Below, in pieces: positions 366 through 58,455 of a DNA stretch of 64,000 nucleotides. The position numbers and the translations under genes are program-made. Under the pieces are notes generated by a model. It was given only the letters and a program-made list of their open reading frames with translations. It was not told where the DNA came from and made no database searches. The stretch lies in assembly GCA_000002435.2 (NCBI GenBank), contig CM018793.1. One strand, written 5' to 3'. Each line of letters starts with the position of its first letter. Position 1 is the first letter of the stretch. Source of the DNA: Giardia intestinalis (lineage: Eukaryota).

Positions 366-1898
366 TCAGAGCTTGTTTGCTACAAGGTACTTGGCTGTGG
401 AGACGAGCCGTCGATAGTCTTTGACCACCTTGTTGATGGCCTTCAGGAAGTCGGCCTCGGAGATCAGACGTCTTTTATCACGCAAACAGTACATGCCTGC
501 CTCTGTACATATTGAGCGTATCTCGGCTCCGCTGGCGTTGGGGCTGAGGCGCGCAAGAAGCTTGACGCGGATGTTCTTTTCTACGCTCATCTTCCGGAGG
601 TAGATCTCGTATATTTCTTCACGGCCCTTCTGGTCCGGCAAGCCAAACTCTATCTTCTTATCAATTCTCCCTGGACGCGTCAGTGCAGCATCCAGGATGT
701 CTGGCCTGTTGCTCGCCATGATCACCTTCACATTTCCCCTCTGCTTGAACCCGTCCAGCTGCGTGATTAGCTCAAGCATCGTCCTCTGTACCCCAGTGTC
801 TCCTGTCTCACTTGCATTAACTGATCTCTTCAGCCCCCACGAATCTACTTCGTCAAAGAAGAGGATCGCTGACTTCTTTGTCCTCGCCAAGCTGAAGATC
901 TCACGAACTAGTCGTGCTCCCTCGCTGGAGTATTTCGAGATGAGCTCCGAGCCCAGAATACGAATGAAAGTGGACTCTGTACGGTTGGCCACTGCACGGG
1001 CTGTGAGGGTCTTGCCGCTGCCCGGAGAGCCGTAGAACAAGAGGCCCTTGCAAGGCTCTATGCCCAGGTTTGTGAATCTCTGAGGATGGAGCAGCGGAAG
1101 CTCTAGAGACTCGCGTATCAGCTTCAGCTGCTTAGCGCAACCGCCAATGTCTCTGTACGTTAGGTTAGGTCTATCATCAACCTGCATAAGGGAAACAAGA
1201 GGGTCAATCAAAGGCGGCAGAGGAAAACGGATGGCATACTTGGAGCGGTCGCAGGCCACGCGCATGCCCTCCTCAAGGTCTGCTGGCGCTATGTTTTCAT
1301 CTTTGCTGACAACGTAGTTGAGGTGCCCAAAAAGATCGATGCATGCACGCCACACAGGCTGTGTGCCCCCAAACCGCCTTGACTGGTCGGAAAAGAGCTG
1401 AGGAACCCCCAGGTCGCCTCCGTCAAGCGTGTGCAGATCAGCGGAGGCGGATGTGTCAGAGTCAGGGGGTCTGGGGATCTTGCTCGCCGCTTCCTGAAGT
1501 GCAGCCCCTGGGTCATGCGAAGAGGCAGGTCCGCCTTGCTGTGGAGCGACTCCGGTAGGTGTTATAACTGTGTTGTCATAGCCCAGTATGTTGGTAATTG
1601 TTGCTATTTGCAATGCCATGAAGTTGCGTACAATCGCTGCATCTCCCTCAATGTCCCATTGGCTTGGAGGCGCTAGGCCACAGTCAAGATCCTCGAGGCC
1701 GGAGTTTGTCTTAATGGTGTTGGCTAGGCGCGTTATGGACGTCTCTAGCTTTTCCAGCTCAGATGAATAGGGCCCCTTCCCGATCTGTTTGAGAAGGTCC
1801 AACTCGCTCTGATCGAGAGTTGGCATATTGGCTACAAACTCATCCATATCCGATTCTGTGTCGTCTCTGTATCGCCTCTTCTGGGCCTGTGGGGGCAT
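366..1898 (-). CDS. 26S proteasome regulatory AAA-ATPase subunit (Rpt family) with an extended N-terminal region.
   Basis: It has a Walker A motif in PCKGLLFYGSPGSGKT and a Walker B motif in ILFFDEVD. It has the second region of homology and a C-terminal helical domain (GAEIRSICTEAGMYCLRDKR) typical of proteasomal Rpt ATPases. The ATG start is preceded by AATAAAAAAATATC. Confidence 0.85.
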   Translation of the reverse strand: MPPQAQKRRYRDDTESDMDEFVANMPTLDQSELDLLKQIGKGPYSSELEKLETSITRLANTIKTNSGLEDLDCGLAPPSQWDIEGDAAIVRNFMALQIATITNILGYDNTVITPTGVAPQQGGPASSHDPGAALQEAASKIPRPPDSDTSASADLHTLDGGDLGVPQLFSDQSRRFGGTQPVWRACIDLFGHLNYVVSKDENIAPADLEEGMRVACDRSKYAIRFPLPPLIDPLVSLMQVDDRPNLTYRDIGGCAKQLKLIRESLELPLLHPQRFTNLGIEPCKGLLFYGSPGSGKTLTARAVANRTESTFIRILGSELISKYSSEGARLVREIFSLARTKKSAILFFDEVDSWGLKRSVNASETGDTGVQRTMLELITQLDGFKQRGNVKVIMASNRPDILDAALTRPGRIDKKIEFGLPDQKGREEIYEIYLRKMSVEKNIRVKLLARLSPNASGAEIRSICTEAGMYCLRDKRRLISEADFLKAINKVVKDYRRLVSTAKYLVANKL

Positions 1899-4605
1899 GA
1901 TATTTTTTTATTGTTGGTTCCATCGGGATCTACAGTTCTTGACATGGAACTTTTGCACCATGCACAAAGCGTGCCAGTGTGTTAGGACCCGAAAAATAAA
2001 TTCCATCTGCGTTGAAAATTCAGAACCCCTTATGTCTCTAACGGCCGTAAGCGATCTTCTTAAGGAAAGCGATGCCATGCTGGATGAGGTCCTGCGGATC
2101 AGAACCATTATTCAGCAGTCCAAAGACGCGTCTGCAGCAGAGCTTCTACGCCGCGTTCGCTATGAGGCGGCAGCCGCCCAGTTCATTCCCTCAGATACCA
2201 TAACCACGCAGCAACTGGAGGAAAATGCTAGGCTCTTGAAGGAGCAAGCGGAGGTCTCCAGTGACGCCTTTGATGATCTTAGGCTCACAGATGAGGAGGT
2301 GCACCAATTTGAGCTTGAGCTTCAGGAGAGAGCAGCAGAGGGCATCGATAAAGTTCCGAAGAGCAATCCTACCGGTGGACCGCCTAAACCCGGCTCTCGG
2401 CGTGGCCAACGAAATGTGAAGGGGTCTTCGGGTAAGCCACATCTCCAGGGTAAGTCCCGGGGTAGTGATCGCCTCCAGAAAGGGACTAGCCAGCCTCAGG
2501 GACCGTCCCGTGTACTAAGCGCTGATAGCTCCATGTCAGCAGAGCAAAGCGATTCGTCGCACAACTGTGGAGACTCAGCAGTTCTTCTCTCTGTCATTCT
2601 GCAAGAAGGCACCTCTTATGCACCAGAGAACCCTGACGGGGACCGCTGTGATGCAAACAGCGGAGTGCTCTCAGAGACGCAGGATCTTGATGAGATGCTT
2701 GACGGCCTTCTGGAGTACCACGAGAAACTGGAAAACGACCGTGTGGACGGGTGTCGGGGTCGGGTTTTCCAGACAGAATTGCCAACCATCCTGGAGTCTC
2801 AGACATCGTCCCCAGGCGCTTCCCAGTACACTGCATCTGAGGCATCCCTTCTTCCAGATCCAACATACAACCCCAATAACATCTACAATCCGAACTTTAC
2901 AGTACTATTAACTGAAAAAGAAAACGACAAAGTTGAGAAACTTTTGGCAGAGGATCTCCCCACTGAAAATGCGTTTCGGCTTTCAAACGAAGACATCCGC
3001 CGCGATGCCGAGATATGCGCACAGCTGTCCATGCTTGTTCCGCTGGACCGTAGCGACATGATCTATGCCCCAACCTTCACAACAGAAGCCTCTGCCGACG
3101 AAACCGTAGAGACGGCCTCTAAGCGGCCATCACGTCCTTACACGCACAACTCGTCCTCAACGCTCGTGACTTTGTCAGAGCCTTCCCATATGACGGAGCG
3201 AGGGCGGGAACTTTGGGCCAAGCATACCAGAGGCCTGTCACTGGGCGAGCCACTGGACATCTTTGTTCCTCGCCTCAAGTCTGGAGTCCCTGACTATTTG
3301 AAGGAGCAGCGGCGAGACAACATCTTGGTCCAATATTACTCTGCGATTTCACAGTGCTTGAACGAGCTTAAAAAAGACAGAAGCCTCATCCACATGACAG
3401 GAGAGAGAGTGAAAGAACTCCTCACGGACTTCTATATGACCCCAACAAACTTTGAACTAGTAGGAGACCTCCACAAAGCCATGGATAGTGTTGCGTCGAG
3501 CTCTCTTCCCTTGCGCAGTATAGGAGACGATGAGACCCCCCTAACACCTCAACTCATCCAGAAACCTGAAGACCTTGTACGGAACATCCTTCCTCCAGAA
3601 GATCGTGAAAAGCTAGACGACATTCTCTCAAGGGTGCGTAGCGATGCGTTGGAAGTTATTGAAACAGATGAGTATTACAAAGATCTGGATCTGACGGAGT
3701 ATATTAAGACGGCCACGGCTTTGCAGGACTTGAATGCCGATCCTGAATCCTCTCCTAAAAGCTACACAGCATATTCACGTGCACTAGATGTTGATGATAA
3801 TCCAGGGATACAGGATCCACTTCTTCTTAAGATCTACCGTGAGAGGCAGGCCGCTGCTCAAAACGCCGATAATATCGAGAACAGCAGCTGCGACTACAGC
3901 AGCATCAGTGATGATTATGATTTCGAAGATTATAAATCTAACCAACTTCTAACAGACCAAGAAATTAAGCGCGAGACCAAGAAGTTATTAGATGGAAAAG
4001 ATCAGGAGGGAGGGAAGTTGTATACGATATTGCAAGACGGAACAGGCCTAAACACCGAAGTAATGTCAGGGGCTGCAGGCCCTACCATAGCCCACTTCTC
4101 TCTGCACCAGGGCACTGACGTCAGCACTGCAGGGCTGGGAGGCACAACGGCAACATCTGAGGCAACTGATAGGACTGCCAACAAGACCAAGATCAAAACC
4201 AAAAAGCAGCTCACGAACACTGAACTGTTGGCCAAAAAGAGCAAAAATCTTAGCAACAAGTTCCAAGAGATAATAAACCGTTCTAAGCCATCAGAGATGA
4301 CTGCAGAGCTTAACCGCGTCTACGAGGATCTCCAGCCAGATGACGTAGACAAGATCCTTTCGGGTCCACAGGCCAATCAGCATATCCAGACACTCAAAAG
4401 GCAAGGGATAGCTTTACTGGATCTAGAGCCGGTCGGCACGGAGTGTTCAGGTCAGTCGATGACGACCCAGAACACGTCTGCATCGTCAACTGTGCTTGGA
4501 GCCTCATCTGGAAGAAGCTCTGCCAAGCCTGTCCTGGCAAAGTCGGGCACAAAGGCGTCGTCTTCAAAAGTTCATAGCAGAATTCCGCAAATACAAGATC
4601 ACTAG
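1897..4605 (+). CDS. Hypothetical acidic, Ser-rich protein. The track start at 1828 is a TTG. In-frame ATGs lie at 1897, about 1960 and about 2029, and which one is used is uncertain.
   Basis: A long ORF of 925 codons from the TTG. It has no recognised domain and contains low-complexity segments (NPNNIYNPN, SSCDYSSISDDYDFEDY). The stop is TAG at 4603..4605. Confidence 0.5.
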   Translation: MIFFYCWFHRDLQFLTWNFCTMHKACQCVRTRKINSICVENSEPLMSLTAVSDLLKESDAMLDEVLRIRTIIQQSKDASAAELLRRVRYEAAAAQFIPSDTITTQQLEENARLLKEQAEVSSDAFDDLRLTDEEVHQFELELQERAAEGIDKVPKSNPTGGPPKPGSRRGQRNVKGSSGKPHLQGKSRGSDRLQKGTSQPQGPSRVLSADSSMSAEQSDSSHNCGDSAVLLSVILQEGTSYAPENPDGDRCDANSGVLSETQDLDEMLDGLLEYHEKLENDRVDGCRGRVFQTELPTILESQTSSPGASQYTASEASLLPDPTYNPNNIYNPNFTVLLTEKENDKVEKLLAEDLPTENAFRLSNEDIRRDAEICAQLSMLVPLDRSDMIYAPTFTTEASADETVETASKRPSRPYTHNSSSTLVTLSEPSHMTERGRELWAKHTRGLSLGEPLDIFVPRLKSGVPDYLKEQRRDNILVQYYSAISQCLNELKKDRSLIHMTGERVKELLTDFYMTPTNFELVGDLHKAMDSVASSSLPLRSIGDDETPLTPQLIQKPEDLVRNILPPEDREKLDDILSRVRSDALEVIETDEYYKDLDLTEYIKTATALQDLNADPESSPKSYTAYSRALDVDDNPGIQDPLLLKIYRERQAAAQNADNIENSSCDYSSISDDYDFEDYKSNQLLTDQEIKRETKKLLDGKDQEGGKLYTILQDGTGLNTEVMSGAAGPTIAHFSLHQGTDVSTAGLGGTTATSEATDRTANKTKIKTKKQLTNTELLAKKSKNLSNKFQEIINRSKPSEMTAELNRVYEDLQPDDVDKILSGPQANQHIQTLKRQGIALLDLEPVGTECSGQSMTTQNTSASSTVLGASSGRSSAKPVLAKSGTKASSSKVHSRIPQIQDH

Positions 4606-51864: not shown

Positions 51865-52877
51865 AACAAATAGAGTTTTTACTGCTCACTTTATCTTACT
51901 TCGTTAATGATATTTACATGAAAAAGATCTATGGAAGTTTTGGATTGTATATATCATAGAATAGATTTATGGTTTGCTTGTGCTTATAACAGAGTGTATT
52001 TATCATGTAAAATACCTTCTATGCTTACAACCTTCTTGATTCTTCGTGAGTATTGCATTTAGGACTTTGTCTTCAAAACCTCCAATCGCCCTATATAGTG
52101 AATTGTGTGGTGAAGGCATCAAGCTGTGGTTTTTTCTGCTAACCGATCTGAATCCACCCTCTAGTTGATATAACGTTCTTCTGATGCATGTGCAATAGGC
52201 TTATCCAATGAAGGGGCGGCTTCCAAGCTCACTGGCGGGATATACCTACGCTAGTACACATTGTAGGCTACGCCAATGGAGCAGAGCTACGACTCCGTCT
52301 GAACGGCCGCACATCCCGCTGTGCACCCCTGGATTAGCACTCGTAGCTACACATACTGAACAGAACATCCCCGCCAGCTCGCCTGTTCTGCTGATACTGT
52401 CAGGATCACCGATTCCTCCAACGTCCCAGTAAGCCGGCCATCCGATACCGGCCAGGAAGCACAGATACATAGGACATCGGAGGATGCTCGAAATCTCCCG
52501 CTCTGGAATGGCTGTCGTCCTCCCCCTCTGGGTCTCTATTATAGTTGTACTAGTAGCCCACTGGCGTCCAACTCAATAATCACACACTCATCAAGCTAGT
52601 AACATCCAGAACAAGCCCTCTATAGACTCCTGCTAGTGTAACTGCCACGTGGTTGGAAGCGCACTACTAGAGGCTAGCCATTTACTATAGGGCTACTTTG
52701 TAAGGATGGCCACTATCTCCTTGAGAGCTGGAACAGGTGGAAGGCATCTTTAGAGGGCCTGCTTCTCTTAGGGACGGTGGTCCCGTGCACCGACTCACCT
52801 TGCGGTCAGAGAGACCATACTGGGACAGTTTGCCTGTGTGGCTCTAGGTCAGACCCACAAACAGAATTCGTCGACGC

Positions 52878-52884
52878 ATTTACT
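52878..52884 (-). terminator. PolyA signal AGTAAAT 9 nt after the VSP stop.
   Basis: The reverse complement of atttact. VSP genes characteristically carry AGTRAAY within about 15 nt of the stop. Confidence 0.55.
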
Positions 52885-52892
52885 ATCTAAGT

Positions 52893-55097
52893 CTACGCCT
52901 TGCCTCTGCACATAAACCACCAGCAGAGGAAACCGACGAGGCCGCCGACGACAATGATGACAGCCACGGCAATACCAGCGATGGCGCCAGTGGAGAGCCC
53001 GCCCTTGTTAGTGTTCTCGCCACTCTGCACGAGGTAACAGAGGACAGACCCTTTATCGTTAAGTGGAGGAGCGCAGCTAGCGCAGTTGGCGACGCCGGTG
53101 ATGGTGCTATCAGCGGTATTTGCCGTGCAAGACACACAGGTAGTCCCAGATTTGTAGTACCCAGTGCTGCAAATGTCGCAATTTGAGGCGGATCCTGCAC
53201 ACGTAGCACAGCCAGTGGCACACTTTGTGCACTTATTATCAGTCTTTACATACCCATACATGCATGTAGTACACACGGTGTTACTAGTGCAGGTCTTACA
53301 TCCAGGCGAGCAAGTCACAAGGTCATTGTTATTAAGATGATAGCCTGGAGCCTCTGTTTTGCAGGTATCCCCATCCTGCGTTACCTCCTCACAGACGTTC
53401 TTTCCAGGAAGTTTGGTCGTCTCATAGCAGCCCCCGTTCATACGAAGAAGCCCGTTGGCGCATTTGTTGCAAACACCACCTCCTTGAGTAGTGCACGTAA
53501 TAGCCTTTCCGGCCGCCGCCGAGCAGACTCCGTTCTGTGGAAACTGGTTGGCGTCCTTGCACTTGGAGCAGTAGGCCGTGCCATCGACTGTCAGCTCGCA
53601 CTTCTCGCAGTTGTTAGTACCCGGTTTGCATTCTGATTTGCACGTCCCCGTGTTGCCCTCTCCTTCGTAGCTGAGGGCCTTCTTAGGCTCGCAGCTCGTG
53701 CACCCGTTGGAGTTCCCGTTCGCGCATGTCTTACACGAGGTATCGCACTTGGCACAGGCGGCTCCGCTCTTGTAGTACCCGTCCTTGCAGGTATCACACT
53801 GTCCCTGAAGATTGCACAGGAGGCAGTTCTCAACCTCGCACTTCTTGCAGGCCTTCTTGCCCCCCTCGTTGGTGCCCGCGTAGTAGCCTCCCAGATCTCC
53901 GCAGTTATCGATGCACTGGCCCGTGGGCGTGAGGGCCTTGGGGCCTTCGCACTCTGTGCACACCTCCTTGCTTGTCTTCGGCTCGCTGCACGTCTTGCAG
54001 CCGGGGGTGTTGCACTGGGGGTCGGGCTTCTTCGTGCACCCGGTGCCCGCGCCGTTGAGAACGTAGCCATCAACGCACTCACAGGTGCCAGCGGTCTTTT
54101 CATCGTTGGAGTTCGAGGGGCAGTTCTCAACGCACGACTTCTTTCCAAGGCCAAACTTGGTCTTCGTACCACTCGTACATGTCTTGCAAACCACTCCGGT
54201 GGGGCCTTTCTCACAAGTGGTGCAGTCAGTTGTTCCAGCCGACACACATGTATTGCACTCCTTTGCTCCTTCATCAACGTAATGAGTTTCCGGGCAGCCT
54301 TTTGCGTCAACGCATGTGCCAGTTGTGGACTCGCCATCCTTCTTCAGGTACGGCTTGTCTCCGTTGCAGGAGGTGCACTTCGCAGCCTCGGTTTTACAGG
54401 TCTTGCATGTCTCAGCGCACTTGCTGCATTTTTTACCGTCAGTTGTATCGACGAAAAAGCCTGGGGCATCCGTGCACTCTTTTTCTGTCACGCAGGAGGT
54501 GGCTGGGTCTGTGGCCGTCTTCAGATACTTATCCGCCTGGCACGCAGTACACGTCGCCACCTTAGCCCCGCTGGCATCGGCTGGCGCAGGTGCATCGCAC
54601 GCTGTGCACCCATCCACGCCTTTGTACGTCTTATCAGCAAGCGTTACGCCCGTCGCGTCTCCGCACGAAACAACCGAGTCGTGGGTCTTATCTGCCCCCG
54701 GCGGAACAAAGTAAGCCTTCGATTCGAGAGCTTCTGTACACTTTCCGTCTGCCGCTGTTTTGCACATGCTACTGCCAGGTGCTTGACTCGTTTGGTAGCA
54801 GCTGCCCTTGTACATGAAAGTCTGCTCGGCGCACTGTGCACAGGTCCGATCAGCTGTATCGCCTCCATCGGCACCTTTACAGTTGGCTTTTGCACCTTCT
54901 TTGTCTGCACATTTTCCATTGATAGGAACAAATCCTGTGTTACATCGAGAGCAATACAATTTACCATCAATTAGAACGTCGCAGATTTCACAGTCATTTG
55001 TTTTATCTGCGCATTCAGCCTGTCGCGCGCGCTCTGTTACTTTTTCTGCCAACGCAATCTGGACGAGTACCCCCGCGAGAACAAAACTGCCAAACAT
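52893..55097 (-). CDS. Variant-specific surface protein (VSP). The track ORF extends to 55247 through a TTG. The true start is the ATG at about 55097, which opens a signal peptide.
   Basis: The C-terminus ...GLVGFLCWWFMCRGKA-stop carries the invariant CRGKA tail. It has a GGCY motif (MNGGCYETTKLPG) and many CXXC motifs. From the ATG the N-terminus MFGSFVLAGVLVQIALA is a signal peptide. Confidence 0.9.
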   Translation of the reverse strand: MFGSFVLAGVLVQIALAEKVTERARQAECADKTNDCEICDVLIDGKLYCSRCNTGFVPINGKCADKEGAKANCKGADGGDTADRTCAQCAEQTFMYKGSCYQTSQAPGSSMCKTAADGKCTEALESKAYFVPPGADKTHDSVVSCGDATGVTLADKTYKGVDGCTACDAPAPADASGAKVATCTACQADKYLKTATDPATSCVTEKECTDAPGFFVDTTDGKKCSKCAETCKTCKTEAAKCTSCNGDKPYLKKDGESTTGTCVDAKGCPETHYVDEGAKECNTCVSAGTTDCTTCEKGPTGVVCKTCTSGTKTKFGLGKKSCVENCPSNSNDEKTAGTCECVDGYVLNGAGTGCTKKPDPQCNTPGCKTCSEPKTSKEVCTECEGPKALTPTGQCIDNCGDLGGYYAGTNEGGKKACKKCEVENCLLCNLQGQCDTCKDGYYKSGAACAKCDTSCKTCANGNSNGCTSCEPKKALSYEGEGNTGTCKSECKPGTNNCEKCELTVDGTAYCSKCKDANQFPQNGVCSAAAGKAITCTTQGGGVCNKCANGLLRMNGGCYETTKLPGKNVCEEVTQDGDTCKTEAPGYHLNNNDLVTCSPGCKTCTSNTVCTTCMYGYVKTDNKCTKCATGCATCAGSASNCDICSTGYYKSGTTCVSCTANTADSTITGVANCASCAPPLNDKGSVLCYLVQSGENTNKGGLSTGAIAGIAVAVIIVVGGLVGFLCWWFMCRGKA

Positions 55098-55679
55098 TGC
55101 CCGATTGATAGATTGGTAGGAACATACTCGCGGTACATCAGTCAATCCGCGTCGATTGATGCAGTTGATTGATCCTTCTGGCACACGTTGACCACAGGCG
55201 CTGATGGAATCAACACTCACCGGGTCTATCGCGAACACTACTTGCAATCTGCAATCTCGGCACAGGGCCAGAAGGAGGTGGATTGAGCCGAACAGAACTG
55301 CGGCTGTCTCAATGTGTATGTCATACTAATGCACCTCGTGGCTCCGTTGCAATCTGTACGGACCATCCAGTGCGAGCCAAAGCTGCCACACGTGCACTGG
55401 GACAGTACTGCCCAGTAGCGGTCCAGAGCTTTCAATGGCTCCATCAACGGCCCACTGACAACTGCAAGGGCGACCCCCGCAGCTCTGCATAACGTGCATC
55501 CAAGGCCCGAGAGGCAGTGCACAGCAACGAGCGTCTCTCAGATGCGCCAGGAGCCCGTCCCAAGGAGTGTTCAGCCCCGATACCGCTTGGTGTGGCTGTG
55601 CTGCGTCTCATAAGGCACCTTCTGCAGCAGAACTAGGATCCATAACTGCGTTCTCCATTTGAAAAGTCAAAGGGAGCAG

Positions 55680-56000
55680 GAGCGCCCGCCACGAGGAGCC
55701 GGCCCCCGGGACGGCTGGGGCGGCACGCCTGTCTGCGGACCCATCCCGGGCTGCTGCGGCGCGCTCCAGGCGCATGGGCACAGCAGCAGCCCAGGGCGTT
55801 CCACCGGTTGCCGCTGCCGAGTCGATGGTCCGGTGGTCTCCCGGCGCCACCGCACCAGCAGGAGGCCGAGCACTGGCCCCCGTCCTCGGCTCTGTCCGCG
55901 GGCCGCTCGCATTGGAGCAGGGGCAGGGCCAGAAATGTTTTGTCCCTCGGGGCCCGCCTCTGGGGCGCCGCTGCCAGGTGGAGCCTGTCTGGGACGCGTC
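55680..56000. other. GC-rich island of about 70% GC, with a weaker extension to about 56470. It is stop-free in several frames on both strands and contains an inverted repeat at 55748..55792.
   Basis: This is seen directly. The composition contrasts sharply with the roughly 50% GC flanks. Overlapping Pro/Arg/Gly-rich ORFs on both strands are typical of a GC-rich sequence with no clear coding assignment. GGGCTGCTG at 55748..55756 pairs with CAGCAGCCC at 55784..55792. Confidence 0.5.
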
Positions 56001-57090
56001 GTAGCGTGTGATTCTGTTAACACTACACCCAGAAAAGCGTTGACTGCATCTGGCGCATTTCCGGCAGACCTCTTCTGCGCCTGGTGCTGCTCGATGGGAC
56101 GACGGGGGCGCTCATAGCCCTCCGGTGGGCGGATGGGATTACGCCTGCCTAGTTCTCTGTCCTCTGAGCACAGCAAGAAGCGGACGATCGGGCTTTCCGG
56201 TGGAGCCATGAAGCGCCGCTGACGGGTAGGATGCACCCCAACACCGGCAGATGCATTGAGGGTCTCTTCTGCTGCCCTGGTCGAGGAAGATGTCATCCCC
56301 GGAAAGCGACGATTTACTTCGACAGCCAGCTATTTCTAGCGCTCTAGTACTGAGCCCCCTGCAGCCGCGGCCCAAGGGTTGCGCAAGTAAACCCACCTCC
56401 CCGCTCTTGTGTGAAGACGGGGACGAGCCAAGCCCGGCTCTCCCACTGCAGCAAGCTCTGGTGACTGGTAGTCCTTCCTCTCCCCAGTCTGTCTGAGCTA
56501 TTCGACAAGAATCAAGAGTGTCGGCTGGACGAGACCCATAGAGGCACTCAGTCTAGCTTTAGGACCCGTCTAATTAGCTAAATATAGTGTCTGTCTCCTG
56601 ATGTTGCGTAGACAGGGTATAAATTGAAAACTTTCCATCACCTAATGGAGTCTTCGAGCCGTTTCTCCAACTCGGAACGGAAGAGGCCATCCGCTCTGTG
56701 GTCCTTGATGCATATCTTGAACACGATCAAAAATAAGCAGGTTTCCCACGCGAGTTTTGGACCACGTCCACAAAGGGTTCAATATTACGGCAACACTTGT
56801 GAACAACAAAGCACCAGAGACAGCTTGCCAGAATAGTCAACACCTCACTACTTATCTGAAAGCTTTTCTACAATAATCAACATAAACAACTGCCATGTAC
56901 TTTCATCAGACCTGATTTACACAATATGCATTAGACACCACGAGCGATGGGATATTGCTCAAGCAACGGAAGTCAGGTAACGCAGCCCTTTGCAATAGGC
57001 ACCTGTATTGTAGTTTGCTCCTGTATATTATATAGTAAGTTTGTTGATATTTAAAGAGTTACCAAGACTGTTCAACTATTCGATAGCTAA

Positions 57091-58455
57091 ATGCAGATGT
57101 CCAGGAAATTTTTGTTAGCAATATTTATTCTACAACTGGCATGGGCCGTCCAAGTAGAAGATGAACGTGAAGAGGCAGCCAGTGACAATGTCAGTACGTC
57201 CGGGATATATAGTTTCACCATCGAAGACAAAAGGTATTGTCCCCAATGCAACCATAGTGAAGACAATCCTGACTCCATAAGCAGAGAGCATGTGGTAAAC
57301 AACACCATAAATAGCAAAGAGGCAGAAGAAGAGCCCACCAAATGCGGCGAGAATCTATACTTAAAAGTGGATTCAGGGACAACTTCATGCGTAGCAGGCG
57401 AAGACTGTGGAACTGGATCATTCCCTGGGACTGATAGTGCTGGTAATAGGAAGTGCATTTCTTGTAGCGATAGCGCTAACGGAGGCATACAACACTGTAG
57501 TGAATGCTCCTTGCTCGCTCCTACGAGTAGATCTGTCACTGTCCTTATCACGTGCTCTAAATGCTCTGCTAATAATCTTAGCCCTTTGGGCGATAAATGC
57601 TTAAGAAAGTGTCCTTTTGGGACATATGATAATGGTGATAACGTCTGTGCTCGCTGTCATGAATCGTGCGCTAGTTGCAATAACAGTCCTGAACCTACTT
57701 CTTGCACTTCTTGTTATCCAGGGTTTGTACTGGATCACGCTGGTGGGCCTGCTGGCACATGCATCCCAGAGTGCACGGGAAGATACGCGGAGAACTGCGA
57801 GGCTGGCCAGTGCACGGCTGTTGTGGGAACGTCCAAGTACTGCAGCAAGTGCAAGACTGGATACGTCCCAGTAGATGGTATTTGCGTATCGACAGCAACA
57901 AGAGAAGTCATGGGATGCACGCCAGGAAACGACGGGACATGTACGGCCTGTACAGGTACATATTTCTTACAATCTGGTGGCTGTTATCAGTCAACAGCGT
58001 ATCCTGGTATGAGATTATGTGAGCAAGCTCAAGATGGAAAGTGCACAAAGTGTGCTAACTTGCAAGCTGTAGATAAACAGGGCTCTTGCCCCTTGTGTGA
58101 AACTGGATGTGACCTATGCGGTACTTCAAGGACGACAGCATGCCAGGCTTGCTTTCCTGGATACTATCACTCTGGCACTAAATGTTTTAAGTGTACAGAT
58201 GATAGTGATGAAAGCGGTGTGAAAATCACTGGCGCCCCTAATTGTGTAAGCTGTGAACCCCCTAATCCCGGCAAGTCTGGTCCTGTTACATGCTATGTAA
58301 CACAGCAACCAAATAACGATAATACTGGGTGGTCCATGAATAGTAATGCACTTTCCCCGGGGGCCATTACAGGGATCTCTATTACAGTTATCCTTATTAT
58401 CGGTGGCGTGGCTGGCTTTCTTTGCTGGTGGTTCTTTTGCCACAAGAAAAAATAG
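57091..58455 (+). CDS. High-cysteine membrane protein / VSP-like protein (454 aa).
   Basis: It has a signal peptide (MQMSRKFLLAIFILQLAWA). It is CXXC-rich and has a GGCY motif (QSGGCYQSTAYPG). The C-terminal transmembrane segment GFLCWWFFCHKKK resembles the VSP anchor, but the tail is CHKKK rather than CRGKA. The ATG is preceded by TTCGATAGCTAA. Confidence 0.85.
   Translation: MQMSRKFLLAIFILQLAWAVQVEDEREEAASDNVSTSGIYSFTIEDKRYCPQCNHSEDNPDSISREHVVNNTINSKEAEEEPTKCGENLYLKVDSGTTSCVAGEDCGTGSFPGTDSAGNRKCISCSDSANGGIQHCSECSLLAPTSRSVTVLITCSKCSANNLSPLGDKCLRKCPFGTYDNGDNVCARCHESCASCNNSPEPTSCTSCYPGFVLDHAGGPAGTCIPECTGRYAENCEAGQCTAVVGTSKYCSKCKTGYVPVDGICVSTATREVMGCTPGNDGTCTACTGTYFLQSGGCYQSTAYPGMRLCEQAQDGKCTKCANLQAVDKQGSCPLCETGCDLCGTSRTTACQACFPGYYHSGTKCFKCTDDSDESGVKITGAPNCVSCEPPNPGKSGPVTCYVTQQPNNDNTGWSMNSNALSPGAITGISITVILIIGGVAGFLCWWFFCHKKK

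What the first reader, a model, noticed from the sequence alone, without database searches (positions are those of the whole stretch)
52893..58455. Convergent VSP and HCMP genes flank a 1.8 kb spacer with a 70%-GC island
A canonical CRGKA-tailed VSP on the minus strand and a VSP-like HCMP on the plus strand point towards each other across about 1.8 kb of non-coding sequence. This is very long for Giardia, where spacers are usually under 200 bp. Inside it is a block of roughly 70% GC with no stops on either strand and a 9-bp-stem inverted repeat. VSP/HCMP loci are sites of antigenic variation and are often near rDNA and subtelomeres, and Giardia rDNA is extremely GC-rich. The island could be an rDNA-like relic, a structured ncRNA gene, or an unannotated Pro/Arg-rich ORF. 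The 209-aa minus-strand ORF at 55667..56296 is one candidate.
Basis: partly seen in the sequence, partly recalled or inferred. Interest (0 to 1): 0.6.

Follow-up and report, generated by a model that had tools for sequence, protein, structure and literature searches.

The report
GC-rich two-copy repeat beside VSP genes
The GC-rich block in this long Giardia spacer is not a gene or an rRNA relic but one copy of a roughly 0.9 kb non-coding repeat; its second copy lies beside another surface-antigen gene, and the two copies are kept alike by gene conversion.

Summary
The window is Giardia intestinalis WB. The long spacer and its GC island are real: 1993 bp, with a peak of 76.5% GC, 5.2 SD above the window mean. 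However, the VSP (52893..55097, minus) and the HCMP (57091..58455, plus) are divergent (head-to-head), not convergent.

The island (55640..56544) is copy A of a two-copy repeat.
- **Copy B in assemblage A:** it lies next to a RING-finger gene and the 3' end of another VSP. In WB that RING gene sits on a different chromosome-sized contig.
- **P15 (assemblage E):** the two copies form a 1173-bp inverted repeat around the orthologous VSP.
- **Concerted evolution:** copies within a genome are 97-98% identical, but copies from A and E are only about 70% identical.
- **Independent check:** short-read contigs break exactly where k=31 paralogue differences predict.

Nothing supports a gene.
- Substitutions show no codon periodicity.
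- The 209-aa ORF is frameshifted or truncated in other copies, is no longer than chance allows, and has no homologue among 1.84 billion proteins.
- There is no Rfam or rRNA hit, no conserved RNA structure, no Giardia ncRNA 3' motif and no published miRNA.
- A-versus-E divergence equals that of fourfold-degenerate sites.

The best reading is a neutral low-copy repeat homogenised by gene conversion. GC-biased conversion as the cause of the GC content is inferred, not shown. Interest is modest.

The parts
52893..55097 (-). VSP gene (734 aa, CRGKA tail). Its 5' end faces the spacer.
   Evidence: The exact protein is KAE8305733.1 / XP_001707422.1 of G. intestinalis WB. Pfam VSP hit at 4.5e-152.
55098..55639 (.). 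Unique left part of the spacer (56% GC). It contains a block, 55177..55273, that is 82-88% identical between WB and P15. The stretch 55330..55700 is essentially unalignable between the two.
55640..56544 (.). Copy A of the two-copy repeat, i.e. the GC island (905 bp, 64% GC).
   Evidence: It is 95.5% identical, in inverted orientation, to L012 9665..10570, which is copy B next to the RING-finger gene. In P15, L004 6389..7561 matches 3060..1888 at 97.2%. Identity matrix. k=31 contig breaks.
55673..56000 (.). Extreme-GC core (75% GC) at the VSP-proximal end of the repeat. It lies inside the 666-bp tract 55673..56338 over which copies A and B of one AII genome are identical.
55667..56296 (-). 209-aa ORF, judged a composition artefact and not a gene.
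55745..55795 (.). It is found only in the A lineage.
   Evidence: Folding z is -2.5 and -3.7 in WB but about +0.2 in the P15 orthologue.
56012..56053 (.). Best-conserved block of the repeat: two 16-mers, TTCTGTTAACACTACA and CGTTGACTGCATCTGG, that are invariant in all eight copies examined. Identity between A and E is about 90% over 55996..56055.
56545..57090 (.). Unique AT-richer right part of the spacer (42% GC), with large indels relative to P15.
57091..58455 (+). High-cysteine membrane protein gene (VSP family, tail CHKKK). Its 5' end faces the spacer.
   Evidence: XP_001707420.1 (454 aa) and KAE8305734.1 (452 aa, starting at 57097). Pfam VSP hit at 1.8e-57.

Best explanation
The GC island is copy A of a non-coding, low-copy (two-copy) repeat of about 0.9 kb in assemblage A and 1.17 kb in assemblage E. 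It sits beside VSP-family genes.

Copy A lies between the divergent VSP and HCMP genes on the 4.02-Mb WB chromosome. Copy B lies, in inverted orientation, between a RING-finger gene and the 3' end of another VSP. In WB that RING gene is on a 1.97-Mb chromosome. In the P15 assembly, copy B lies on the other side of the same VSP.

**Shown:**
- The duplication predates the split of assemblages A and E.
- The copies are kept nearly identical within each genome by recurrent ectopic gene conversion.
- The sequence drifts at the neutral rate between lineages.

**Inferred:**
- Repeated conversion, if GC-biased as proposed for Giardia rDNA, has driven the GC content up.
- High GC removes stop codons and so creates long spurious ORFs and incidental hairpins.

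On this reading the element does nothing as a gene. It matters as a recombination substrate at a VSP locus and as a breakpoint for short-read assemblies.
For: **Two copies with unique flanks.**
- P15 L004 6389..7561 matches 3060..1888 at 97.2% over 1173 bp with no gaps.
- In an AII assembly, copy A is in L009 and copy B is in L012.

**Orthologous positions in both lineages.**
- L012 is colinear with the left side of the P15 locus: RING gene, copy B, then the VSP 3' end.
- The right-hand boundary of the repeat, near 56544-56550, is the same in A and E.

**Concerted evolution.**
- Within-genome identity is 98.1% (AII) and 97.3% (P15), against 70-72% between A and E.
- Copies A and B of the AII genome are identical over 666 bp.
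- Derived alleles are shared by copies of the same genome.

**Independent confirmation from contig ends.**
- Logan contigs L001, L002 and L007 start at 56495. The last 31-mer shared between WB copy A and L003 starts at 56494.
- L011 starts one base after the last 31-mer shared between L009 and L012.

**No gene signal.**

**Neutral rate.** Island identity between A and E is 0.70-0.735. Fourfold-site identity is 0.696 in STT3 and 0.723 in the 433-aa gene.

**GC pattern.** GC is higher inside the repeat than in the distal flanks at all four copies. GC-biased gene conversion has been proposed for Giardia rDNA (PMC10123126).
Against: - GC-biased conversion is not shown directly. Polarised recent changes are 29 S>W against 20 W>S, with a 30%-diverged outgroup.
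- The left flank of copy A is also fairly GC-rich (56%).
- From 55716 to 56400 the A/E alignment is almost free of indels, and one 60-nt block is 90% identical. A purely neutral repeat does not predict either feature.
- Copy B was not read from the WB reference chromosome itself. Its presence in WB-type isolates rests on L003 and on the k-mer logic.
- L003 may be a mosaic of reads from copies A and B.
- The SPAdes-resolved AII copies could hide a few differences between paralogues.
- The P15 inverted arrangement could be a mis-join through VSP paralogues.
- No expression data were available.
Confidence: 0.62

Rival explanations
1. The repeat is a functional non-coding element of VSP loci, kept in two copies by selection. 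It could be a regulatory or recombination-promoting sequence, or a lncRNA gene. In the inverted P15 arrangement, read-through transcription could give double-stranded RNA for the Dicer/Argonaute pathway that silences VSPs.
For: - Both copies are adjacent to VSP genes in two lineages.
- The alignment is nearly indel-free over about 685 bp at 30% divergence.
- Two 16-mers are invariant in all copies, and one block is 90% identical between A and E.
- The repeat has persisted since before the A/E split.
Against: - Overall divergence equals that of fourfold-degenerate sites.
- There is no conserved secondary structure and no Rfam hit.
- The spacer lacks the Giardia ncRNA 3' processing motif.
- None of about 100 published Argonaute-bound small RNAs maps here.
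- The assemblage B RING locus shows no copy in the 2.1 kb that is available.
Confidence: 0.17
2. The island is a relic of a mobile element or of subtelomeric/rDNA-spacer DNA that was dispersed to two VSP loci.
For: - The repeat boundaries are sharp, and the right-hand one is conserved between lineages.
- GC content is close to that reported for Giardia rDNA and its spacers (PMC10123126).
- Another unrelated 65-77% GC non-genic stretch lies near copy B.
Against: - No rRNA model matches, even at E<=10.
- The island ORFs give no Pfam domain, so no reverse transcriptase or transposase was found.
- No terminal inverted repeats are visible at 55640 or 56544 (sequence inspection).
- Only two copies are seen, and only one 90%-identity protein cluster was recovered from all public assemblies.
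- The window is gene-dense.
Confidence: 0.08
3. The island encodes an unannotated Pro/Arg/Gly-rich protein, either the 209-aa minus-strand ORF or an overlapping frame.
For: - The ORF is open in WB.
- An AI-like isolate carries a 99%-identical copy (P0081).
- The same frame is partly open in P15 as a 145-aa ORF.
Against: - A/E substitutions fall evenly across codon positions (29/33/33, p=0.84). The VSP control gives 26/5/18, p=0.001.
- One-nucleotide indels between WB and P15 upstream of 56074 break the N-terminal half of the ORF.
- DH has a 1-nt insertion at 56257, and copy B encodes only 180 or 149 aa.
- Several frames on both strands are open at once.
- The ORF length is expected by chance.
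- There are no homologues among 5.8 billion or 1.84 billion proteins, and no Pfam hit.
- The current WB annotation has no gene between KAE8305733 and KAE8305734.
Confidence: 0.03

Closest known systems
Low-copy repeats or segmental duplications under concerted evolution, such as palindrome arms and rDNA arrays, where GC-biased gene conversion raises GC content
   Same: There are two copies at distinct loci. Paralogues are far more alike (97-98%) than orthologues (about 70%). One tract is identical between copies. GC is raised inside the repeat. The copies are inverted in P15.
   Different: There are only two copies, they are short (0.9-1.2 kb), and they carry no gene. A W>S fixation bias was not demonstrated here.
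Duplicated or inverted VSP gene pairs and VSP-associated synteny breaks in Giardia. These are described in the VSP repertoire literature, and gene conversion among VSPs is cited in PMC7641422.
   Same: The repeat lies at VSP loci, and the A-versus-E synteny break coincides with the VSP flanked by the repeat. Gene conversion operates between loci.
   Different: What is duplicated and homogenised here is a non-coding flank, not the VSP coding sequence. One copy lies 5' of a VSP and the other lies 3' of a VSP.
The Giardia rDNA unit (about 75% GC, subtelomeric)
   Same: Extreme GC content for Giardia, repeated in the genome, and probably shaped by conversion.
   Different: No similarity to SSU, 5.8S or LSU models. 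The copy number is two. The location is gene-dense and internal. Similarity to the rDNA intergenic spacer is untested.

Membership tests
Low-copy repeat under concerted evolution | At least two copies at different loci with unrelated flanks | tested here: met
   Copies are at P15 L004 6389..7561 and 1888..3060. In the AII assembly, copy A is in L009 and copy B in L012. The flanks diverge completely outside 55640..56544.
Low-copy repeat under concerted evolution | Both copies sit at orthologous positions in two lineages, so the duplication is older than the split | tested here: met
   L012 (RING gene, copy B, VSP 3' end) is colinear with P15 L004 1..3979. Copy A is followed by the HCMP gene in both lineages.
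Low-copy repeat under concerted evolution | Paralogue identity is much greater than orthologue identity, with shared derived alleles or identical tracts | tested here: met
   Identity is 98.1% and 97.3% within genomes, against 70-72% between A and E. There is a 666-bp identical tract and shared derived sites. Caveat: assembly of repeats may hide some differences.
GC-biased gene conversion tract | GC is raised in the converted tract relative to the unique flanks | tested here: met
   In WB the repeat is 64% GC (core 75%) against flanks of 56% and 42%. In L012 it is 65% against 52% and 45%. In P15 it is 59% against distal flanks of 36% and 46%.
GC-biased gene conversion tract | An excess of W>S over S>W among derived changes | tested here: inconclusive
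   There were 29 S>W and 20 W>S changes, polarised with a 30%-diverged outgroup. Per-site rates are about equal.
Protein-coding gene | Substitutions are concentrated at third codon positions | tested here: not met
   Counts are 29/33/33 over 359 gap-free sites (p=0.84). The VSP control gives 26/5/18 (p=0.001).
Protein-coding gene | The ORF is intact in relatives and longer than chance allows | tested here: not met
   The ORF is 209 aa in WB, 180 or 149 aa in copy B, and 145 aa in P15, and DH carries a frameshift. 12% of shuffles give a stop-free run of 220 codons or more.
Protein-coding gene | Homologues or a known domain | tested here: not met
   Only a near-identical self-cluster was found. 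There is no Pfam hit.
rDNA relic | Similarity to SSU, 5.8S or LSU rRNA | tested here: not met
   Rfam gave no hit at gathering thresholds on the window, or at E<=10 on the spacer.
rDNA relic | Similarity to the rDNA intergenic or transcribed spacers | not testable with these tools
   No Giardia rDNA sequence could be fetched. The metagenome scan for the SSU 5' end returned nothing.
Structured ncRNA gene (Giardia) | A match to a described RNA family | tested here: not met
   The best hits are chance-level miRNA matches with E of 0.37 or more.
Structured ncRNA gene (Giardia) | Secondary structure conserved between lineages | tested here: not met
   Alifold energy was compared with column shuffles in 34 windows. 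The lowest z was -1.99. The hairpin is lost in P15.
Structured ncRNA gene (Giardia) | The 12-nt 3' end processing motif (CCTTYNHTHAA-like) | tested here: not met
   The spacer has no match, and the window has six matches against an expected 3.8. The motif is taken from PMC3510501.
Structured ncRNA gene (Giardia) | A discrete transcript | not testable with these tools
   No RNA-seq data were available.
Giardia miRNA precursor | A published Argonaute-associated small RNA maps to the locus | tested here: not met
   About 100 sequences from Table S1 of PMC3937270 gave no hits at 3 mismatches or fewer in the window, L012, L004 or L008.
VSP family (flanking genes) | Pfam VSP domain and a CRGKA cytoplasmic tail | tested here: met
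   The VSP has both features. The HCMP has the domain but ends in CHKKK, so it is a VSP-family HCMP rather than a canonical VSP.
Transposable element | Terminal repeats or target-site duplication, an element-encoded enzyme, and many copies | tested here: not met
   No terminal inverted repeats are seen at the boundaries (inspection). There are no Pfam domains. Only two copies were detected.

The most novel reading that the evidence does not exclude
The repeat could be a dedicated cis-element of VSP loci. As an inverted pair bracketing a VSP, as in P15, or as an inter-chromosomal pair, as in assemblage A, it could promote inversion, translocation or conversion of the enclosed or adjacent VSP. 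Alternatively, read-through transcription could fold it into long double-stranded RNA that feeds the Dicer/Argonaute pathway controlling which VSP is expressed. The invariant 42-nt block at 56012..56053 would be its functional core.
Probability: 0.07. Interest if true: 0.7.

Novelty: new member of a known kind. Interest (0 to 1): 0.3.

Why it matters
- **Annotation and assembly.** The result explains an odd feature of the WB genome: the longest and most GC-rich spacer in this 64-kb window. It argues against annotating the 209-aa ORF. It also explains why short-read Giardia assemblies consistently break here.
- **Biology.** It documents ongoing ectopic gene conversion between non-coding flanks of VSP loci that, in assemblage A, lie on two different chromosomes. 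The site coincides with an A-versus-E synteny break. This gives a small, well-defined locus for measuring conversion, and any GC bias in it, in an organism whose sexual or recombinational biology is still debated.
- **If the repeat proved functional,** it would bear on how antigenic variation is controlled.

Tried and rejected
- **Known RNA families.** Rfam at gathering thresholds on the window, and at E<=10 on the spacer and on the L012 copy-B region, gave only chance miRNA or snoRNA scores. There are no tRNAs.
- **Repeat within the window.** No second copy exists in the 64 kb.
- **Protein homology for the 209-aa ORF.** The word-indexed search and the full HMMER search both returned only the near-identical self-cluster. 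Pfam found nothing.
- **Exact look-ups of other ORFs.** Other ORFs in the spacer and overlapping the VSP were looked up to identify the old-annotation entry XP_001707421. None is in the collection.
- **Published small RNAs and motifs.** Published Giardia miRNAs gave no hits. The ncRNA 3' motif is absent from the spacer. A telomerase-template-like (CCCTA)n string is absent apart from a single 7-mer.
- **Metagenome scans.** Scans for the invariant island block and for the Giardia SSU 5' end, intended to reach the rDNA intergenic spacer, both returned nothing.
- **Assemblage B.** All contigs carrying the RING gene end within 2.1 kb of it and show no island. Contigs from a more distant lineage (L005, L006) have unrelated AT-rich DNA upstream.
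- **Bacterial origin.** A BLAST search against plasmids gave only a 78-nt chance match.
- **WB chromosome records.** They could not be fetched through the look-up tool, so copy B was not read from the WB reference itself.


Full report
**Identity of the window.** Exact protein look-ups place the window in Giardia intestinalis WB C6 (ATCC 50803), on a 4,018,654-bp chromosome-sized record. The minus-strand gene at 52893..55097 is VSP KAE8305733.1 / XP_001707422.1 (734 aa, CRGKA tail). The plus-strand gene at 57091..58455 is the High cysteine (membrane) protein XP_001707420.1 / KAE8305734.1. The newer annotation starts it at 57097. Both proteins hit Pfam VSP PF03302. Their accession numbers in the current annotation are consecutive, so no protein-coding gene is annotated between them.

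**Checking the observation.** The VSP lies to the left on the minus strand and the HCMP lies to the right on the plus strand.
- The ATG-to-ATG spacer is 55098..57090, or 1993 bp. It is the longest spacer in the window. The second longest, 1029 bp, is on the other side of the same VSP.
- The GC island is real. It reaches 76.5% GC in 200 bp at 55701, which is 5.2 SD above the rest of the window. The core 55673..56000 is 75% GC.
- The 209-aa ORF and an imperfect hairpin with a 10-bp perfect core at 55745..55795 both exist.
- 'No stops on either strand' is overstated, because every frame has 1-2 stops in 55667..56117.
- The longest stop-free run, 220 codons, is reached by 12% of composition-preserving shuffles.

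**What the island is.** The syntenic locus of assemblage E isolate P15 (L004) has the same divergent VSP/HCMP pair. Its spacer is 2018 bp and also carries a GC island.
- BLAST of the spacer against that locus found two matches. P15 6389..7561 and 3060..1888 form a 1173-bp inverted repeat, 97.2% identical with no gaps, bracketing the VSP.
- The window holds only one copy.
- The only protein cluster related to the 209-aa ORF in 5.8 billion sequences contains 209-aa and 180-aa versions.
- The 180-aa version lies on contig NODE_591 of an AII-like assembly (L012). That assembly also holds copy A on NODE_146 (L009).
- L012 9665..10570 matches window 56544..55640 in inverted orientation at 95.5%. On one side lies a RING-finger gene. 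On the other side, 757 bp away, lies the 3' end of another VSP.
- L012 is colinear with the left half of the P15 locus.
- The RING protein is identical in WB (KAE8302585.1), where it sits on a 1,973,847-bp record, which is a different chromosome.

The island is therefore copy A of a two-copy repeat whose copies lie beside VSP genes. The A and E assemblies differ by a rearrangement whose junction lies within or next to the VSP.

**Concerted evolution.** Over the core, within-genome copies are 98.1% identical in AII and 97.3% in P15. Any A copy is only 70-72% identical to any E copy.
- Both copies occupy orthologous positions in both lineages, and the right-hand repeat boundary (about 56544-56550) is shared. 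The duplication therefore predates the A/E split, and the within-genome similarity requires gene conversion.
- In the AII genome the two copies are identical over 55673..56338 (666 bp), which includes the GC-richest core.
- Lineage-specific derived alleles are shared by the copies of one genome.

Contig ends give an independent check.
- The 921-bp Logan contig L003 carries the copy-B flank (58 of 60 bases identical to L012).
- The last 31-mer L003 shares with WB copy A starts at 56494. WB-type contigs L001, L002 and L007 start at exactly 56495.
- Likewise, the AII contig L011 starts one base after the last 31-mer shared by L009 and L012.
- None of the 23 longest contigs carrying STT3 crosses the island.

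Caveats: repeat assembly can hide some differences between paralogues, L003 may be a mosaic of the two copies, and the P15 arrangement could be a mis-join through VSP paralogues.

**Not a gene.**
- *Coding potential.* WB-versus-P15 substitutions in the gap-free block 55716..56074 fall evenly on the three phases (29/33/33, p=0.84). The VSP N-terminus gives 26/5/18 (p=0.001).
- *ORF integrity.* One-nucleotide indels break the upstream half of the ORF between A and E. DH has a 1-nt insertion at 56257, copy B encodes 180 aa, and P15 encodes 145 aa.
- *Homology.* A full HMMER scan of 1.84 billion representative proteins finds only the ORF itself. Pfam finds nothing.
- *RNA.* There is no Rfam family, including the rRNA models, even at E<=10. 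RNAalifold energies do not beat column shuffles (minimum z of -1.99 over 34 windows). The hairpin has z of -2.5 and -3.7 in WB but about +0.2 in P15.
- *Giardia-specific marks.* The ncRNA 3' processing motif (PMC3510501) is absent from the spacer. About 100 published Argonaute-bound small RNAs (PMC3937270) do not map here.
- *Rate.* Island identity between A and E (0.70-0.735) equals fourfold-site identity in the neighbouring STT3 (0.696) and the 433-aa gene (0.723). The sequence as a whole therefore evolves at the neutral rate.

**Mechanism.** The presence of two copies, their orthologous positions, their concerted evolution, and the neutral rate without coding or RNA signals are shown. It is inferred that recurrent conversion with a GC bias raised the GC content. 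This has been proposed for Giardia rDNA (PMC10123126). High GC would in turn create the spurious ORFs and hairpins.
- In support, GC is higher inside the repeat than in the distal flanks at all four copies.
- Not supportive: polarised recent changes are 29 S>W against 20 W>S. This is roughly compositional equilibrium, and the outgroup is poor.

Some residual oddities keep a functional reading alive at low probability.
- The A/E alignment is almost indel-free over about 685 bp.
- Two 16-mers, TTCTGTTAACACTACA and CGTTGACTGCATCTGG at 56012..56053, are invariant in all eight copies.
- Both copies abut VSP genes.

**What could not be done.** The WB chromosome records could not be fetched. Assemblage B contigs stop short of the relevant region. 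No Giardia rDNA spacer could be obtained, so similarity to the intergenic spacer is untested. No expression data were available.

**Verdict.** The feature is a new example of a known kind, a low-copy repeat homogenised by gene conversion at a VSP locus. Its interest is modest.

Noticed in passing
window 51865..52892: This is a second unusually long spacer (1029 bp), between the 3' ends of the 1110-aa gene and the VSP. It has no counterpart in P15, whose VSP 3' flank is orthologous to the copy-B locus (L012) instead. The A-versus-E synteny break therefore lies within or beside this VSP.
   Followed up: partly
L012 6700..8400: Between the RING-finger gene and copy B lies another non-genic stretch of 65-77% GC, about 1.8 kb long. 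It is unrelated in sequence to the island and absent from P15. Short-read contigs of WB-type, DH and other isolates also end at its edge. It has no Rfam or Pfam hit.
   Followed up: partly
window 55177..55273: This block, 80-180 nt upstream of the VSP start codon, is 82-88% identical between WB and P15, which is above the neutral level of about 70%. In both isolates the VSP frame stays stop-free for about 45-50 codons upstream of the annotated ATG, with similar peptides (SVDSI..CG.., RRGL). It may be a regulatory or 5' leader element of this VSP.
   Followed up: no
L004 (P15), positions aligned to window 55964..56037: Fourteen of the 33 differences between the two P15 copies cluster in this roughly 75-bp patch. 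Part of the patch overlaps the block that is best conserved between A and E. P15 copy A resembles WB here and copy B does not, which looks like a local patch that escaped conversion.
   Followed up: no
window 55098..57300 compared with L008 (DH): WB (AI) and DH (AII) are only 95.9% identical across this spacer. From my own knowledge of AI/AII divergence, that is several-fold more divergent than usual. The DH HCMP is annotated from a downstream ATG (376 aa, against 452 or 454 aa in WB).
   Followed up: no
L019 1..2136 (GS_B, assemblage B): In assemblage B the RING-finger gene is followed after 346 bp by VSP fragments. Neither the GC-rich stretch nor copy B is present in the 2.1 kb available. 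All other assemblage B contigs end within 175 bp of the RING gene.
   Followed up: partly
L005 / L006 1..847: In a more distant Giardia lineage (45% amino-acid identity for the 433-aa gene), the DNA upstream of that gene is AT-rich. It shows no similarity to the WB HCMP or spacer.
   Followed up: partly
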